A DNA stretch of 64,000 nucleotides from a virus, in the IMG/VR virus record IMGVR_UViG_3300010938_000009, positions 40,284 through 104,283 of that record. The stretch is one strand, 5' to 3'. Every line of letters starts with the position of its first letter. Position 1 is the stretch's first letter. The position numbers and the translations under genes are program-made. Under the pieces are notes generated by a model. The model was not told where the DNA came from. It searched no databases and saw nothing but the letters and a program-made list of their open reading frames with translations. Below, one piece after another: positions 7,729 through 48,280 of the stretch.

Positions 7729-8775
7729 TTATACTATACTTTTATTTAGTTTGTCAATAGCTTCTGCAAATATTTCTGTATCTAATCCTAATGAAATTCT
7801 AGCTCTAGTTTTATCTCCAAAATAAACTCCGTCTATAATATTAACTTTAGCTTTTTCAGTAGCTTTAATAAAATTTTTACCTTTCTTTAAAAAGGCGAAC
7901 ATACCATTAGGTTTAATATCATTAGGGTCTAATATCGACTTATCAATTTGTTTTAACTTATTAATATTGACTCCTAGTTTATTTTTACATTGATTATGAA
8001 AGTAGGTTTCAGCGTTAGGATTATTATAGAAGAATACTTCTATATCGTATAATATCTTTTGAGAGAAATCACTTGTACCCATTGTAGTAATTTCTAAGTA
8101 TTCCGACATCTTAGTAGCTAGTTCCTCTGACTCACAAATTGCATAACCTATTCTTAAGCCTGATAATCCGAACTTTTTACTACAGGATACTAAATGTATA
8201 TTACCTTTAACTTCTAGTTTATGATTAGGTAGATATTGTTGACAATAGTAAGCCCCATCAAATATGATAGGTTTATCTGAAGTATAACTTATATAATCTA
8301 TATTACTATCAGGGTTATTAGGAGCTGTAATTAAGCTAAAGTCTGCGGTAGCTTCTTTATGTACCATCTTACAACCTTCTTTATTAATAAGTACAGGAAA
8401 TGATAGCCAATAAGGTTTAGGTACGTATATGTTAGCCTTCTTATCGTCTCTTAAAGCATATATAGCGGCTGATAAGCCTTGTTTAGCCCCGTTAGTAATA
8501 ACTACAGGCTTCTGGTATTTAAAGCTTAGAAATTGCTTTAATTCATCTGTACCTGCTGCTGGAGGGTATTTAGAGTTCCTAGGGTCAAATCTATAGTTTA
8601 GAGTTTCTCCAAATGTAGTTAAAGTCTTCTCTAAGGCTCTCTTAATTATATCAGGTTCGCCTATAGTTAAATTTATAGTACCTTCTGGTAAGGGATTTCT
8701 AGCTAATACTAGATCATTTTTTAGATATTTTACCATTACTGTATGCCGAGTTGTTTTTGCCGGATTTAATTTCAT
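7729..8775 (-). CDS. PLP-dependent class I/II aminotransferase
   Basis: INLTIGEP, TNGAKQGL, PNNP, FDGAY, SCSKKFGLSGLRIGY; likely start MVKYLK. Confidence 0.88.
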   Translation of the reverse strand: MKLNPAKTTRHTVMVKYLKNDLVLARNPLPEGTINLTIGEPDIIKRALEKTLTTFGETLNYRFDPRNSKYPPAAGTDELKQFLSFKYQKPVVITNGAKQGLSAAIYALRDDKKANIYVPKPYWLSFPVLINKEGCKMVHKEATADFSLITAPNNPDSNIDYISYTSDKPIIFDGAYYCQQYLPNHKLEVKGNIHLVSCSKKFGLSGLRIGYAICESEELATKMSEYLEITTMGTSDFSQKILYDIEVFFYNNPNAETYFHNQCKNKLGVNINKLKQIDKSILDPNDIKPNGMFAFLKKGKNFIKATEKAKVNIIDGVYFGDKTRARISLGLDTEIFAEAIDKLNKSIV

Positions 8776-40901: not shown

Positions 40902-41547
40902 CTATTTTTAAAAATATTTGGGTTTACTTTGTATATACTTTTGAGGGTATAGTGAGAAGTCTTTTTTGATTATGCGTGGATATTAATTAATGTTAGTTTC
41001 TTTAAACAATTAATTATACCGTTAAATTAAAAAACAAGTGATTTTAGTTAGTTATATTAAACAAATCACTTAATAAACTAATTTAACTAAAGCTCTACAA
41101 AAGAGCTTTAGTAGTACAGTTACTAACTAGTTACTAATATTATAAAGTTACTAGTTAATAAAACAGTCATAATAATATGACTCAAAAAAATTACTTATAA
41201 GTACAATTACTTAATAGTAAATACTACAGTAATATAACATAAAGATTGAATTTAAGTTATAATTGTAATAATAAGTAAAAGCTTAGTTTTTGATTTTACA
41301 TAAGTAGAGAATACAGCCTCTCACCCTTATATAGAGGGCTTTGAATTTCCGAACTGATAAGATTAATTATTAAGTTCCTATTACCTGAATTTTTTAATAT
41401 GAACGGATATTAAAGGTTTTGACGGTAATACGGCCTCCGTTACTAGAGAATTCCCCGATTCTCTTTATAAGGTTAAGTTTTTCCTAATAAAAAACTATAT
41501 ATATATCGGGGGCTTTATTAGCCCCCTTATTATACCGAGGAGTAAAT

Positions 41548-42497: not shown

Positions 42498-44099
42498 ATG
42501 CAAGTTCAATATAATACAGAAGGTAAACCTTTAAGAATAAATGAACTCGACATAGAAGGTTTAGCTAAATGGTTATATGAAAATAAAGTTAGAACGACTC
42601 AAGGTAAATTATATCAACCATTACATAAGGGACATTTAGAAGTTTTAAAAGATCCAGCTAGATTCAAAGTTTTAGCTTGCGGTAGAAGATGGGGGAAAAC
42701 TTTATTAACTTCTTTAATGGCTTTAGCTGTTCTGTTTCAAATGAACAGAAGAGTTTGGATTATTGGCCCAGATTATTCTTTGTGTGAAAAGGTTTTTAGA
42801 GAACTTTATAGCATTTTAGTATTACAATTGAAGATTATAGTTCCTGGAAAAAAAGGACGTGCTCGGAACCAAAAAGGGGATTATTACTTAGAAACTCCTT
42901 GGGGAAGCATATTAGAAGCTAAATCAATGGAGAATCCTGACAGTTTAGCAGGAGAAGCGAACGACCTAATTATTATAGATGAAGCAGCTCTTACAACTAA
43001 TTTAGAAAATATATGGGTGCAAATGCTAAATCCGACGTTAATGGATAAAGAAGGTTCAGCAATTTTTATTTCTACACCACGAGGTAAAAATAATTTTTAT
43101 AAACTATTTTTATTTGGTGAAAAAGGTAAACGACAAAGAGAGGGTAAACTTAAAATAACCATAGATCCAGAAACAGGCATTAATAACGATATGACTGAAT
43201 GGAGTAGTTTTCAGAGAACTAGTTACGATAACCCTTTGTTAGCAGCTACGCCAGAAAAATCTAAAAGTGAAATTGATGCTGCTTATAGACGCTCTATAAT
43301 GTCTGGTAAAATAGTCATGTTTAAACAAGAATACTTAGCAGATTTTGAATCAGTTTCTGACAGTTGTTTTCCAGGTTTTAACGTAGAAGCTACTGAAAAA
43401 ATACAATATCCTAATGTAATAGATTATAATTGGCACCCTGATGAAGGCCCAATTTACTCAGCTTGCGATCATAACTTTGCTAAACCAGCAAGTACTATAT
43501 TCGCTCAAGTAAATCAATTTGGAGACGTAGTAATATTTGATGAATATTTTACACCACATACAACCTCCTACATGCAAGCCCAACAAATAGTAGACAAAGA
43601 AAGAGAACTTACAAGAAGAGCTATAAAAATTTGGGACGACGAAGCACAATTATTAAAAAATAGAAGACATATAAAATTTGAAGAAATAATAGCAGATATT
43701 TCAGGAGATCAAGTACAACTACATGGTAGAGCAGCTTGGGATGATTTTGAAGCAGTTTTAGGTAGAAGACCAAAAGGTTTAGCTCAAAATAGAGAAACAG
43801 GTTGTAATATGATAAGACTTTGGTTACAATTTCCAAAGTTTGATCAAAAAGGACAGCCAGTATTCGACAAAAACAACGAACAAGAAACTTACCCTAAATT
43901 ATTTGTTTCTAGTAATTGTACTAATTTAATTTACGCTTTAAGTACTGCTAAGTTCAAAAAAGGAAACGGCGGCAACTTAAAAGAAGATTATGAAGAAACT
44001 CCAGAAGGTTACGAAGGTTTAATTGATGCTTTACGTTATTTAATAGTATACTTATTTCACAATAAGGGTAATTACGTAGAAGTTTACAAAGGATTTTAA
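42498..44099 (+). CDS. terL: terminase large subunit
   Basis: ACGRRWGKT Walker A, IIIDEAA Walker B, ISTPRG, QEYLADF, nuclease DHNF...DALRY. Confidence 0.93.
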   Translation: MQVQYNTEGKPLRINELDIEGLAKWLYENKVRTTQGKLYQPLHKGHLEVLKDPARFKVLACGRRWGKTLLTSLMALAVLFQMNRRVWIIGPDYSLCEKVFRELYSILVLQLKIIVPGKKGRARNQKGDYYLETPWGSILEAKSMENPDSLAGEANDLIIIDEAALTTNLENIWVQMLNPTLMDKEGSAIFISTPRGKNNFYKLFLFGEKGKRQREGKLKITIDPETGINNDMTEWSSFQRTSYDNPLLAATPEKSKSEIDAAYRRSIMSGKIVMFKQEYLADFESVSDSCFPGFNVEATEKIQYPNVIDYNWHPDEGPIYSACDHNFAKPASTIFAQVNQFGDVVIFDEYFTPHTTSYMQAQQIVDKERELTRRAIKIWDDEAQLLKNRRHIKFEEIIADISGDQVQLHGRAAWDDFEAVLGRRPKGLAQNRETGCNMIRLWLQFPKFDQKGQPVFDKNNEQETYPKLFVSSNCTNLIYALSTAKFKKGNGGNLKEDYEETPEGYEGLIDALRYLIVYLFHNKGNYVEVYKGF

Positions 44100-45183: not shown

Positions 45184-45251
45184 CCTCATAATAAGATACA
45201 CGATGGACAGTAGAGCTGTTCGACCTGTTCCTTGAGAGGAAAGGAGGAAAA

Positions 45252-48200
45252 TTGAGTTTTAACCTAGGCGTGTCTAATCATCCAACGAGTAGATTAGGCG
45301 GATTAAGTTCTGTAGGGATTTATCTTTACGAAGATATTTACTATAGACAGTGGATCAGTGAGATCGCCTTGGCCTTTTATGAAGGTGAATATATCGGCCT
45401 TCGCTTTAAGTAATTAAAGAGTTATGATGCGACAAGACGAATTAAGATAAGTTCGTCGGTAACGAAAGTTACAAAAATAATATAAATAACCACAAAATGT
45501 TATCTGGTTAGACTTAGAGTAAGACAGTTTCGTAATCCTGAGAAAATTTAAAAACTGTTTACTGAGTCTCTAAAATGGGGTGAATTGCTGGAAACTCCTA
45601 AAACTCACATAGCTACAAAGTAAATCGAAAGATTAAGCTTGACATGCTAGAGAATATGTGAGATACTCCTTAAAAGGTGTAATGGATAATCAGCAGCTAA
45701 GCGTAGTAGGGTTTAAGTTACTGCGAAAGTTCAACGACTAGAAGGTGAGTCCCAACAATAAGTCCTTCCTGAGAGTGCCCGATCCTGACCGAGTAAAGTC
45801 GAAGGATAAGATATAGTCTACTCCTATTTGAAAAAAGAGGTATATGATTAACGTAAAAAAATTAAAAAGTTCCGAATTAGATTCCGCCATATATGGTATG
45901 ATTCTAGGTGATGGATGTATACAAATGGCTAGTTCTGGAAAAGGAAATAGCAATTTAAAAATAGGACATTCAATAAAACAAGAAGAGTATTTAAAATGGA
46001 AACAAGAGATTGTAAATCAAATTGGAACGGTAAAAACTAGATTTTGGTATTATCAAAAACAAAACGCTTGTTATATAGAAACCAACACTAGAAACTACTT
46101 TACTAAATTAGAAAAAATATTTTATATTAACAGAAAAAAAACTATTAATAAAAAAATATTGAATAAATTAACAGATTTATCTTTAGCTATATGGTTTTTA
46201 GATAATGGTTATATGAGTTATAATAAATCTGGTTCTGTTTACGGAGAACTCTGTACAGATCAATTTAGTTTAGAAAAAGTACAATTAATAAAAGATTGGT
46301 TTAAAATTAAATTTAATATGGAAGTTGGTATTAGAACTTTACGATATTTAAGCGGCAAACAAAAAGATACTATAGCTTATAGAATAAAGTTTAACAAAGA
46401 AAACTGTATTAAATTAACAGAAATAATTAAACCTTATGTTAATCAAGTGAGTTGTATGCACTATAAATTATACGAGAATAAAATTGCTTCTCAGGCAGTA
46501 GAGAAATCTTCTGTGCAAAAATCTGTTATTGAAGCAACAGATACTACCACTTAATCTTACTAAAGAGATTATAGATGAAACCTCTATACTATATAGAGAA
46601 GATCCTATATATCAAGTAGTAGATGATAAGGGTAAGATATTAAAAAAAGATCAAGAATTATGGGAGCAAATCCAAAAGGATTCTCGCTACTTGACCTTTA
46701 TGGACAAACTTGATAGATGGGTACGACTACTAGGTACCGTACTAGTTAAAGTTTCTTTTGTAGATCCGCAGACTGGACTACTAGTAGATAAAAATAAAGA
46801 AGGTACTGTACAACTGGATATGCTACATGGCGGCGTATACGATATAAGACATGGAGCTTCTCCCTACTATATTACAGAATTACTTATAGGTTTTGGCACT
46901 AAATTTGGAGGATTCAGAGAAAGATCTGGAACTCAAATTATAGGCGGATCACTTACAGGTAAATTACCTGATCCTAGTAGTATGGGGCAAGCCGACATAA
47001 AAACACGACAACGAATTGATTCTCCAGGACAATTAGGTTCAGTTAATAGAATTTATTGGAGTGCTCACTCACATTACGTTGAGGACGAAGATAGTAAGTA
47101 TTACGAAACTAAAAATCCTTATGGAATAATTCCTGCTGTGCCGTTTTTTAATCAAGACCCAGCTCACTATTACTTTTTACCAATTAATGAACCTCTTATT
47201 TACGCTAATCATGCGACTAATATGAGGATTACAGATTTGAATCATATTGCTAAGTTTCAATCGTTTGGAGTACCTGTAGTAAGTGGTATCGAAAGACCTA
47301 CTTCACTAAGACAAGGTAGACCTGTAGACGATTTTAACGTATTAAAAGGTGGTACAGCTCAATCTAGATTTGGTGGAATTAGTGGTTTTGGAGCTAACGG
47401 ACAATTTAGAACCTTTGACCAAGGTTTAGGAGTAACAAGAGATGGAAACGCTGATGCTAATGCATTAGGTTTTTCTATTGGACCTGATACTGCTATAGCT
47501 GTTGGAGAAAAAGGGGATTTTAGATTTGAACACCCTTCTGCAGATATTACAGGCTTAATTAAGGTTATACATAGTATAACTGATATGGTTAGAATTAACC
47601 ACGGATTAAGACCTAAATATGAAAATACATTACCTTCATCAGGTTTTGCATTATTAATGGAGAAGATTGGTGTTATAGAAAATAATATTAGAAGAGGTAA
47701 ACTCTTTAAAGAAAGAGAAGAACAACTTTTCAATGTTATTAAGAATTTGTGGAATGTACATCATAATAAATCAGGAAGTAAAAGGTTTTCTGAAAAAGCT
47801 AAGTTAATTATAACTTACGTTAATCCTAAATTTCCAGTTGACCCTAAAACTGAAAAAGAAGATATTATGATGGAAAGTAAAATAGTAGAAACTGGAGACA
47901 GAGCTGCTATTAAAAGAATGTATCCACACATAAAAGAACCAGAAATAGATAAATTAATTATACAAGCAAGAAAAGATAAAGAAGAAAGATCCTTATTTGA
48001 AGCTGAACTTCAAGCCAAGGTTACTGAGATTATAGGACCTAAAGAAGATCCTAAAAATCCTGGAGCTAAACATAAATATTTAAGAAAATCTAAAGAAGCA
48101 GAAAGCGACAAAGAAACTTATATTTATGAAGACGAAGACGGAAAAGAAAAAGAAGTCAAAAGATTAGATAAGAGTAAGGAAAAACTAGGTAAGCCTAAGA

Positions 48201-48280
48201 TCGATAATAAAGCAAAACACGCTGAAGAAAGTTCTAAGCAACCTGGTAAAAATGGTGATCCAAGAAGAAAAGAGGAGTAA
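45252..48280 (+). CDS. portal protein, spliced from 5 exons (45252-45386, 45430-45442, 45500-45515, 45518-45542, 46532-48280; ~645 aa)
   Basis: AGGAGG SD + TTG start. The joined exons read ...ALAFYEG-RQDEFIWLDLVRQFRNPE-KQQILPLNLTKEIIDETSILY. Exon 5 has SPP1-like portal motifs (NPYGIIPAVPF, SGFALL). Position after terL. Confidence 0.8.
45387..45429 (+). ncRNA. core-less group I-like mini-intron A (43 nt)
   Basis: P1 GAAGGU/GCCUUC with U.G at the 5' site, P10 CGA/UCG, CUUUAA-GUAA-UUAAAG hairpin, terminal G. Confidence 0.7.
45443..45499 (+). ncRNA. core-less group I-like mini-intron B (57 nt)
   Basis: P1 GACGAAU/GUUCGUC with U.G, P10 UUAUCU/AGAUAA, GUAAC-GAAA-GUUAC hairpin, terminal G. Confidence 0.75.
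45543..46531 (+). mobile_element. group I intron (IA-like) carrying a LAGLIDADG ORF
   Basis: P GAAUUGCUGGAAA (45582), Q AAUCAGCAG (45688), R GUUCAACGACUA (45729), S AAGAUAUAGUC (45808), P7.1 GAAGG/CCUUC. Exact ends could shift 3 nt (45546-46534) with the same protein product. Confidence 0.88.
45844..46554 (+). CDS. intron-encoded LAGLIDADG homing endonuclease/maturase
   Basis: IYGMILGDGCI and LAIWFLDNGY motifs. Confidence 0.88.
   Translation: MINVKKLKSSELDSAIYGMILGDGCIQMASSGKGNSNLKIGHSIKQEEYLKWKQEIVNQIGTVKTRFWYYQKQNACYIETNTRNYFTKLEKIFYINRKKTINKKILNKLTDLSLAIWFLDNGYMSYNKSGSVYGELCTDQFSLEKVQLIKDWFKIKFNMEVGIRTLRYLSGKQKDTIAYRIKFNKENCIKLTEIIKPYVNQVSCMHYKLYENKIASQAVEKSSVQKSVIEATDTTT

What the first reader, a model, noticed from the sequence alone, without database searches (positions are those of the whole stretch)
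45252..46554. One ribozyme, four splices: portal gene split by four intervening sequences served by a single group I core
Seen: a TTG start with AGGAGG SD at 45252 reads 45 codons to ...FYEG and then stops. The rest of the portal begins about 1.15 kb later. Removing 45387-45429 (43 nt), 45443-45499 (57 nt), 45516-45517 (2 nt) and 45543-46531 (989 nt) gives one continuous frame, FYEG|RQDE(F)IWLD(L)VRQFRNPE|KQQILPLNLTKEIID, of ~645 aa. All four segments end in G. The first three follow a U paired to a guide G, and every junction has a complementary guide spanning both exons. Only one catalytic core (P,Q,R,S at 45582-45818) exists. Established: group I splicing needs a P1 U.G pair, P10 and omega-G docked into a P3-P9 core, and engineered trans-excision-splicing ribozymes can remove short segments. 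Inference: a single core processes several separate substrate modules in the same mRNA, i.e. a natural multi-site splicing/editing system on an essential virion gene. I know of no description of this arrangement.
Basis: partly seen in the sequence, partly recalled or inferred. Interest (0 to 1): 0.96.

Follow-up and report, generated by a model that had tools for sequence, protein, structure and literature searches.

The report
Portal gene with core-less mini-introns
An essential phage portal gene is broken by one complete self-splicing (group I) intron and three tiny inserts of 43, 57 and 2 bases. The tiny inserts keep a group I intron's splice-site guides but have no catalytic part, so they probably borrow the one ribozyme next door, which I found described only for engineered ribozymes.

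Summary
Removing 45387-45429, 45443-45499, 45516-45517 and 45543-46531 gives one 645-codon frame. Its N-terminus (...FYEGRQDEFIWLDLVRQFRNPEKQQILPL...) matches uninterrupted homologues without gaps, 69-72 of 79 residues identical.

The 989-nt insert is a real group I intron (Rfam 57.7 bits) with a LAGLIDADG ORF. It holds the only group I core in the complete 104-kb phage genome.

Each short insert follows a U that pairs with a guide G, ends in G, and has one continuous guide complementary to both flanking exons (0-3 of 5000 shuffles do as well).
- The 43-nt insert sits where relatives carry a full intron and is homologous to that intron's 5' end.
- The guide for the 2-nt AG sits at the ribozyme's own canonical guide position.
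- The big intron's own junction is matched by a second guide 36 nt before its last G.

Three other phages show the same design (34-36-nt and 6-nt inserts, with compensatory changes), always beside this intron type.

Splicing by the neighbouring core is the best reading (about 0.6), but no RNA data could be obtained. The big intron's 5' splice site follows G, not U.

This scan has reported similar core-less mini-introns in at least seven other phage genomes. I found no published natural precedent.

The parts
45241..45246 (+). Shine-Dalgarno AGGAGG for the portal gene
   Evidence: read from the sequence
45252..45386 (+). Portal exon 1 (TTG start, 45 codons, ends ...ALAFYEG)
   Evidence: tblastn to P0002 residues 1-45; homologue N-termini
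45387..45429 (+). Core-less mini-intron A (43 nt). P1: 45381-45386 GAAGGU with 45397-45402 GCCUUC, U.G at the junction. P10 guide: 45394-45396 UCG with CGA at 45430-45432. GUAA-capped hairpin at 45404-45419. Ends AUG.
   Evidence: 5' part homologous to the full introns at this site in L004, L006, L012 and L483
45430..45442 (+). Micro-exon 2 (13 nt; RQDE plus the first base of F)
45443..45499 (+). Core-less mini-intron A' (57 nt). P1: 45436-45442 GACGAAU with 45451-45457 GUUCGUC, U.G at the junction. P10 guide: 45445-45450 AGAUAA with UUAUCU at 45500-45505. GAAA-capped hairpin at 45459-45472. Ends AUG.
   Evidence: 13-nt guide, 0/5000 shuffles; fold z = -3.9
45500..45515 (+). Micro-exon 3 (16 nt; rest of F, IWLD, first two bases of L)
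45516..45517 (+). 2-nt insert AG. It follows U45515 and ends in G. It is bulged between P1 (45510-45515 AGACUU with 45564-45569 GAGUCU) and P10 (45518-45530 with 45552-45563).
   Evidence: parallel 6-nt case in L244
45518..45542 (+). Micro-exon 4 (25 nt; last base of L, VRQFRNPE)
45543..46531 (+). Full group I intron (989 nt) with core and endonuclease ORF; ends in G46531
   Evidence: RF00028 57.7 bits, E 1e-13; exon junction from homologues
45552..45569 (+). Guide 1 (AAACUGUUUACU + GAGUCU). It lies 5 nt upstream of P3, the canonical internal-guide position by comparison with the site-A introns. It pairs with the exons flanking the AG insert.
45575..45840 (+). Catalytic core P3-P9 (AAUUGCUGGAAA, AAUCAGCAGC, GUUCAACGACUA, AGAUAUAGUC)
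45844..46554 (+). LAGLIDADG endonuclease ORF (236 aa). Its second motif reads LDNG. The ORF runs through guide 2 and 23 nt past the 3' splice site.
   Evidence: Pfam PF03161, 8e-34; alignment with five relatives
46484..46495 (+). Guide 2 (UUGCUUCUCAGG): exact complement of the ligated junction CCUGAG|AAGCAA, 36 nt before the terminal G
   Evidence: compensatory versions in L020 and L030
46532..48280 (+). Portal exon 5 (582 codons plus stop)

Best explanation
The portal pre-mRNA carries four group-I-type intervening sequences but only one ribozyme.

The 989-nt element is a complete group I intron with a LAGLIDADG ORF. The 43- and 57-nt inserts are group I introns that have lost the P3-P9 core. 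They keep only the substrate half: a P1 hairpin with U.G at the 5' splice site, a directly adjoining P10 guide, a GNRA-capped hairpin and the terminal G.

I infer that the resident core docks these P1/P10 modules and carries out the two transesterifications on them. This could happen in cis before the intron leaves, or in trans afterwards.

The 2-nt AG would be removed the way engineered trans-excision-splicing works. The ribozyme's own canonical guide pairs with both flanking exons and leaves U|AG| at the active site.

The big intron's own exons are aligned by a second guide near its 3' end.

Shown: the anatomy, the homology, the guides, their covariation, and the single core. Inferred: that splicing occurs and that this core performs it.
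For: (1) The join restores a 645-codon frame that is ungapped against intron-less homologues.

(2) Junction-spanning guides are far beyond chance at each of the four sites.

(3) Mini-intron A lies exactly at the G|R site where L004, L006/7, L012 and L483 carry a full group I intron. It aligns with their first ~35 nt. Exon and guide co-vary: GAAGGU/GCCUUC here against GAGGGU/GCCCUC there.

(4) Independent cases.
- L020 has a 36-nt insert and L244 a 34-nt insert at the I|T site. Both carry the guide UCUGUA|GUCCACU, a U.G pair and a terminal G, although the two portals are only ~59% identical.
- The read-through peptide of P0126 implies a guide UCUGUG with 3' exon CACAGA. That is a compensatory change in P10.

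(5) L244 has a 6-nt insert AAAAUG. Its P1/P10 guide (AUUGACU|GCGAGAU) sits at the canonical guide position of the next intron, like the AG here. In L020, L030, L019 and L011, which lack a tiny insert, the P1 half of that guide has decayed.

(6) Core-less inserts occur in 3 of 6 distinct portals with this intron type and in 0 of ~26 others.

(7) There is only one core in the complete genome.

(8) The chemistry is feasible. Engineered ribozymes excise a single G after a U (PMC2532722). Engineered ribozymes also remove 100-nt introns in trans in E. coli (PMC4094466).
Against: There are no RNA data.

The big intron's 5' splice site follows G45542 paired with C, not U.G. Relatives have G-C, A-U or A.C at that position; only L030 has the canonical U.G.

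I found no helices tethering the mini-introns to the core beyond chance.

The window's phage has no close relative, so the 43- and 57-nt inserts themselves cannot be tested for conservation.

The endonuclease looks degenerate, which would also fit a decaying locus.
Confidence: 0.6

Rival explanations
1. The short inserts are dead relics, and this portal allele is a pseudogene in a defective or minority genome captured by assembly. They would be imprecise deletions of former introns plus a 2-nt indel.
For: Mini-intron A clearly arose by deletion of a core. The endonuclease has lost a conserved Asp and its normal stop. CheckV's completeness estimate is only 56%.
Against: All three micro-exons still encode the consensus residues exactly. 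P1, P10 and the terminal G are intact at every insert. The same design persists in phages ~59% identical, with compensatory changes. The contig closes on itself with a 55-nt terminal repeat, and the neighbouring genes are intact.
Confidence: 0.13
2. The inserts are removed from the RNA, but not by the neighbouring core. A host-encoded ribozyme or protein machinery would do it, as in lichen fungi, where degenerate group I introns in rRNA are removed by an unidentified cellular machinery.
For: Degenerate group I introns lacking catalytic sequences are spliced in vivo in lichen fungi (bioRxiv 10.1101/2021.05.01.442275). No tether to the resident core was found.
Against: Every core-less insert found lies beside a full intron of the same type. 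The guides for the 2-nt and 6-nt inserts are physically part of that ribozyme, at its canonical guide position.
Confidence: 0.12
3. Translational recoding restores the frame without splicing: ribosome hopping over the 43- and 57-nt gaps and a frameshift at the 2-nt insert.
For: The gaps are of the size bypassed in T4 gene 60 (own knowledge). The three inserts sum to 102 nt, a multiple of three.
Against: There are no matched take-off and landing codons. GGU is followed by GAA, and AUG precedes the resumption. There is no slippery site at CUUAGAG. Hopping does not explain U.G, P10, the terminal G, or the covariation.
Confidence: 0.05
4. Assembly or sequencing artefact.
For: It is a single metagenome-derived record. 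No reads could be laid on it.
Against: The inserts are structured, unique and lie at homology-defined sites. Analogous inserts occur in independent assemblies: L020/L199/L337, L244, and L030/L023.
Confidence: 0.03

Closest known systems
Phage group I introns with homing endonucleases, including several in one gene (T4 td/nrdB/nrdD; Staphylococcus phage Twort orf142 with three introns and exon skipping; Bastillevirinae, PMC11878797)
   Same: Same ribozyme class and the same kind of host gene. It has P1, P10, a terminal G and an endonuclease ORF, and several intervening sequences are crowded into a few dozen codons.
   Different: In those cases every intron has its own core. Here three of the four have none, and the micro-exons are 13-25 nt long.
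Engineered trans-excision-splicing ribozymes (Pneumocystis, Tetrahymena, Candida; PMC2532722) and 'spliceozymes' (PMC4094466)
   Same: A group I core binds both flanks through P1- and P10-type guides. It excises a segment that follows U and ends in G, down to a single nucleotide.
   Different: Those are laboratory constructs acting in trans. Here the arrangement is natural, lies in cis on an essential mRNA, and two substrates carry their own guides.
Degenerate group I introns of lichen-fungal nuclear rDNA (bioRxiv 10.1101/2021.05.01.442275)
   Same: Group I-derived inserts that lack the sequences needed for catalysis yet are removed in vivo.
   Different: Those are eukaryotic rRNA introns removed by an unknown cellular machinery. 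There is no neighbouring donor core, no protein-coding frame, and none is as short as 2 nt.
Euglena plastid group III introns and twintrons (own knowledge)
   Same: Streamlined descendants of self-splicing introns that are thought to depend on catalytic parts supplied from elsewhere.
   Different: They descend from group II introns and use different chemistry (a branch point rather than guanosine). They are organellar.
Naturally split, trans-spliced group I introns of organelles (e.g. PMC3873408)
   Same: The parts of a group I intron needed for one splice lie on separate pieces.
   Different: There, one intron is broken into two halves that reassemble. Here, one core would serve several separate substrate modules.

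Membership tests
Group I intron (RF00028): the 989-nt element | Conserved catalytic core P3-P9, including the guanosine-binding P7 | tested here: met
   57.7 bits against a cut-off of 50, model positions 1-253
Group I intron (RF00028): the 989-nt element | Terminal guanosine (omega G) at the 3' splice site | tested here: met
   G46531 precedes AAG CAA CAG
Group I intron (RF00028): the 989-nt element | 5' splice site after a U that forms a U.G pair in P1 | tested here: not met
   Position -1 is G45542, paired with C in guide 2. Relative L030 has the canonical U.G.
Group I intron (RF00028): the 989-nt element | Internal guide next to P3 pairs with the intron's own 5' exon end | tested here: not met
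   The guide at that position (45552-45569) pairs 27 nt upstream, around the AG insert. The intron's own junction is matched by 46484-46495.
Group I intron (RF00028): the 989-nt element | Self-splicing with guanosine and Mg2+ | not testable with these tools
   Needs in vitro transcription
Group I intron: the 43-, 57- and 2-nt inserts | P1 with U.G at the 5' splice site, P10 with the 3' exon, terminal G | tested here: met
Group I intron: the 43-, 57- and 2-nt inserts | Own catalytic core | tested here: not met
   The inserts are too short, there is no Rfam match, and the core motifs occur once in the genome
Group I intron: the 43-, 57- and 2-nt inserts | Descent from a full group I intron | tested here: met
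   Shown for the 43-nt insert only: alignment A1 with the site-A introns, whose core is recognised by Rfam
LAGLIDADG homing endonuclease | Two LAGLIDADG motifs, each with the conserved acidic residue | tested here: inconclusive
   PF03161, 8e-34. Motif 2 reads LDNG where five relatives have MDDG.
Trans-excision-splicing reaction (works like it; not a membership claim) | Excised segment follows U and ends in G; one guide pairs with both flanks | tested here: met
   AGACUU[AG]AGUAA.. pairs with ..UUACU GAGUCU; compare the substrates in PMC2532722
Programmed translational bypass (T4 gene 60 type) | Matching take-off and landing codons, with a stop right after take-off | tested here: not met
   GGU is followed by GAA. 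The codon before resumption is AUG.

The most novel reading that the evidence does not exclude
This would be a natural 'spliceozyme': one group I ribozyme working as a shared splicing enzyme for several core-less introns in the same essential mRNA.

It would include an RNA-guided 2-nt excision that acts like frame-correcting editing. The mini-introns would be satellites that depend on their neighbour for catalysis. They may also depend on it for spread, through co-conversion during endonuclease-driven homing.
Probability: 0.5. Interest if true: 0.93.

Novelty: new variant of a known kind. Interest (0 to 1): 0.87.

Why it matters
If the core really serves four splices, group I ribozymes act in nature as multi-substrate enzymes and not only as single-use self-splicers. 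That would be a living example of the step, long proposed for group II introns and the spliceosome, in which introns shed their catalytic parts and rely on a shared catalyst.

It would also be a natural case of ribozyme-guided removal of as little as 2 nt from an mRNA.

There is a practical consequence too. Gene callers truncate these portal genes: about 16% of the listed homologues start inside the protein. Phage annotation pipelines therefore miss such genes.

Tried and rejected
The contigs of the truncated homologues (P0120, P0072, P0125, P0126 and others) could not be fetched.
- Sequencing runs: none was listed, and no RNA holder was listed.
- The whole-window Rfam scan at gathering threshold found nothing. 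This was an effect of the speed filters: the intron scores above the cut-off when they are relaxed.
- tblastn of the portal against the phage collection found no match.
- A pattern for short inserts at the G|R site gave only an unrelated chance hit, L038.
- The two 14-mer scans saturated with chance matches. The degenerate I|T pattern found only L020's contig plus two chance hits.
- Tether helices between the mini-introns and the big intron were no better than shuffled sequence.
- A genome-wide scan for P1>=6 plus P10>=3 plus terminal G gave hits at chance level. The strongest extra hit (41452-41508) is an intergenic terminator region.
- No guide was found for L030's extra base.
- I looked for a canonical U.G register for the big intron's 5' splice site by shifting the boundaries. 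None keeps both the frame and a terminal G.

Full report
**What is there**

The window is the 3' 64 kb of a 104,283-nt IMG/VR phage record whose ends share an exact 55-nt repeat.

Downstream of the large terminase (42498-44099; PF03237 and phrog_2), a TTG at 45252 preceded by AGGAGG opens a frame. That frame reads MSFNLG...ALAFYEG and then runs 8 codons into foreign sequence, to a TAA.

A 583-codon frame (46529-48280) is the rest of a portal protein (weak phrog_104 hit). It has 304 relatives at E <= 0.001, most of the 120 listed being 600-650 aa long.

Those relatives read ...ALAFYEGRQDEF[IV]WLDLVRQFRNPEKQQILPLNLTKEIIDE... without interruption.

In the window, RQDE(F), IWLD(L) and VRQFRNPE lie in three different frames at 45430-45442, 45500-45515 and 45518-45542. 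Joining the five pieces gives 645 codons with one terminal stop. Residues 2-80 are 69-72/79 identical, ungapped, to intron-less homologues.

**The large insert**

- RF00028 matches 45522-45840 at 57.7 bits (cut-off 50), with a complete P3-P9.
- The whole-window scan at default filters missed it. The relaxed scan finds it again, and nothing else.
- It is the only hit in the whole genome. The conserved core strings each occur only there.
- 45844-46554 encodes a LAGLIDADG_2 protein (8e-34).

**The short inserts have the substrate half of a group I intron**

- 43-nt insert: exon GAAGGU pairs with GCCUUC (U.G at the junction). The adjoining UCG pairs with the next exon's CGA. A GUAA-capped hairpin follows, and the insert ends AUG.
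- 57-nt insert: GACGAAU pairs with GUUCGUC (U.G). The adjoining AGAUAA pairs with UUAUCU. A GAAA-capped hairpin follows, and the insert ends AUG. MFE folds give these helices for both inserts; the z-score for the 57-nt stretch is -3.9.
- 2-nt AG: it follows U45515 and ends in G. AGACUU pairs with GAGUCU (45564-45569), and AGUAA[G]ACAGUUU pairs with the directly preceding AAACUGUUUACU.

Against 5000 dinucleotide shuffles, guides spanning the homology-defined junctions were matched 3, 0 and 0 times.

A loose genome-wide scan for the bare motif gives chance numbers. The argument therefore rests on position, not on the motif alone.

**Origin of the 43-nt insert**

In L004, L006/L007, L012 and L483 the same G|R junction holds an 870-920-nt insert. 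Rfam recognises a P3-P7 core in L012's insert (39.5 bits, E 2e-8 locally).

The window's insert aligns with their first ~35 nt, up to the start of P3/P4, and then jumps to a short tail. It is a core-deleted derivative.

Exon and guide co-vary: GAA GGU with GCCUUC here, GAG GGU with GCCCUC there.

In these canonical relatives the guide lies 5 nt upstream of P3. The window's guide for the AG insert occupies that same position in the big intron.

**The big intron's own junction**

Its 5' exon ends in G, not U. At 46484-46495, 36 nt before the terminal G, UUGCUUCUCAGG is the exact complement of the ligated CCUGAG|AAGCAA (2/5000 shuffles).

The homologous introns carry the equivalent stretch 23-39 nt before their last G:

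| Locus | Guide 2 | Ligated junction it matches |
|---|---|---|
| L020 | UGCUUCUCUGG | CCAGAG\|AAGCA (compensatory) |
| L030 | 16-nt guide | AAUCCU\|GAAAAACAAC, with a canonical U.G at -1 |
| L011, L244, L019 | weaker versions | - |

The big intron is thus built like a mini-intron whose core and ORF sit between the 5' splice site and the guide.

The G-C pair at position -1 here is unexplained (A-U or A.C in three relatives). It is the main structural objection to canonical chemistry at this junction.

**Independent cases**

- L020 has a 36-nt insert after TGG AU|. L244 has a 34-nt insert at the same I|T site. Both have the guide UCUGUA|GUCCACU (13 nt, 0/5000), a U.G pair and a terminal G. Their 3' halves have diverged, and the two portals are only ~59% identical.
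- The gene-called fragment P0126 reads through such an insert (NLWSTYKNCNFAQKLH). Because Trp is UGG and Ala is GCN, the guide must be UCUGUG and the 3' exon CACAGA. That is a compensatory U-A to C-G change in P10.
- L244 also has a 6-nt insert AAAAUG after CUCGU|. Its guide, AUUGACU|GCGAGAU, lies at the canonical guide position of the next intron.
- In L020, L030, L019 and L011, which have no tiny insert there, the P1 half of that guide is not complementary. The P10 half is kept.

Core-less inserts were found in 3 of 6 distinct portals carrying this intron type, and in none of ~26 portals that are uninterrupted or carry only the site-A intron.

N-terminal fragments show at least nine insertion sites within ~40 codons.

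**Mechanism**

The most economical reading has four parts.
- The resident core docks the P1/P10 modules of the two mini-introns.
- It uses its own canonical guide for the AG.
- It uses guide 2 for its own excision.
- All guides pair with unspliced neighbours, so no order of splicing is imposed.

The chemistry has been shown with engineered ribozymes. Single-nucleotide excision after U was shown in PMC2532722. Removal of 100-nt introns in trans in E. coli was shown in PMC4094466.

I found no helices tying the mini-introns to the core.

**Rivals**

The rivals are a relic or pseudogene, another splicing machinery, translational recoding, and an assembly artefact. They are weighed in their own sections. 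None accounts for the covariation together with the exclusive association with a full intron.

**Novelty**

Literature searches found engineered precedents, degenerate rDNA introns in lichen fungi, and multi-intron phage genes. I found no natural shared-core arrangement.

Earlier agents of this scan reported core-less mini-introns beside full group I introns in at least seven other phage genomes. First readers noted the same features on this genome.

This case adds four things: the 2-nt and 6-nt excisions guided from the canonical guide position, the second guide, a demonstrable origin by core deletion, and P10 covariation.

Noticed in passing
window 45844-46554 (motif near 46195-46215): The intron's LAGLIDADG protein reads AIWFLDNG in its second motif, where all five relatives have MDDG. 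It has also lost their stop: the ORF runs ~25 codons further, through guide 2 and 23 nt into the portal exon. It may be an impaired endonuclease, a nickase or a maturase.
   Followed up: partly
L030:3990-4005 (identical in L023:400-420): In exon 2 of a relative's portal, one extra base (CUG A CCC) breaks the frame between EKQQIL and PINLT. It could be a single G after U, as in trans-excision-splicing, but I found no convincing guide.
   Followed up: partly
L030:7134-7299 and 7869-7988: Two further partial group I matches lie ~3 kb downstream of the portal. One covers P3-P7. The other is a 120-nt stretch with P7'/P9. They are probably one more intron with an ORF inside it, in another structural gene.
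   Followed up: no
portal codons ~25-66 across relatives (P0121-P0129, P0120, P0072, L-loci): At least nine different insertion sites are crowded into about 40 codons of the portal N-terminus: D|I, I|T, G|R, F|V, L|V, V|R, R|N, P|E, E|K and within K. About 16% of the listed homologues are gene-called with truncated N-termini as a result.
   Followed up: partly
Viral contigs, loci L039-L118 and onward: The 16-nt core string GGTGAATTGCTGGAAA occurs in more than 116 viral contigs. This intron family is widespread in uncultured phages.
   Followed up: no
all six site-B introns, 5' region (window 45518-45563): A helix between the VRQF codons and the intron's first 10-25 nt is kept by covariation even where no tiny insert is present. 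This places the big intron's 5' splice site in a hairpin loop. A second hairpin (AUCUG/CAGAU) places the 3' splice site in a loop as well.
   Followed up: partly
L481, L482, L483: Portal relatives sit on contigs binned into Ignavibacteriaceae and Saccharibacteria MAGs. These are probably phage contigs swept into bins and give no reliable host call.
   Followed up: no
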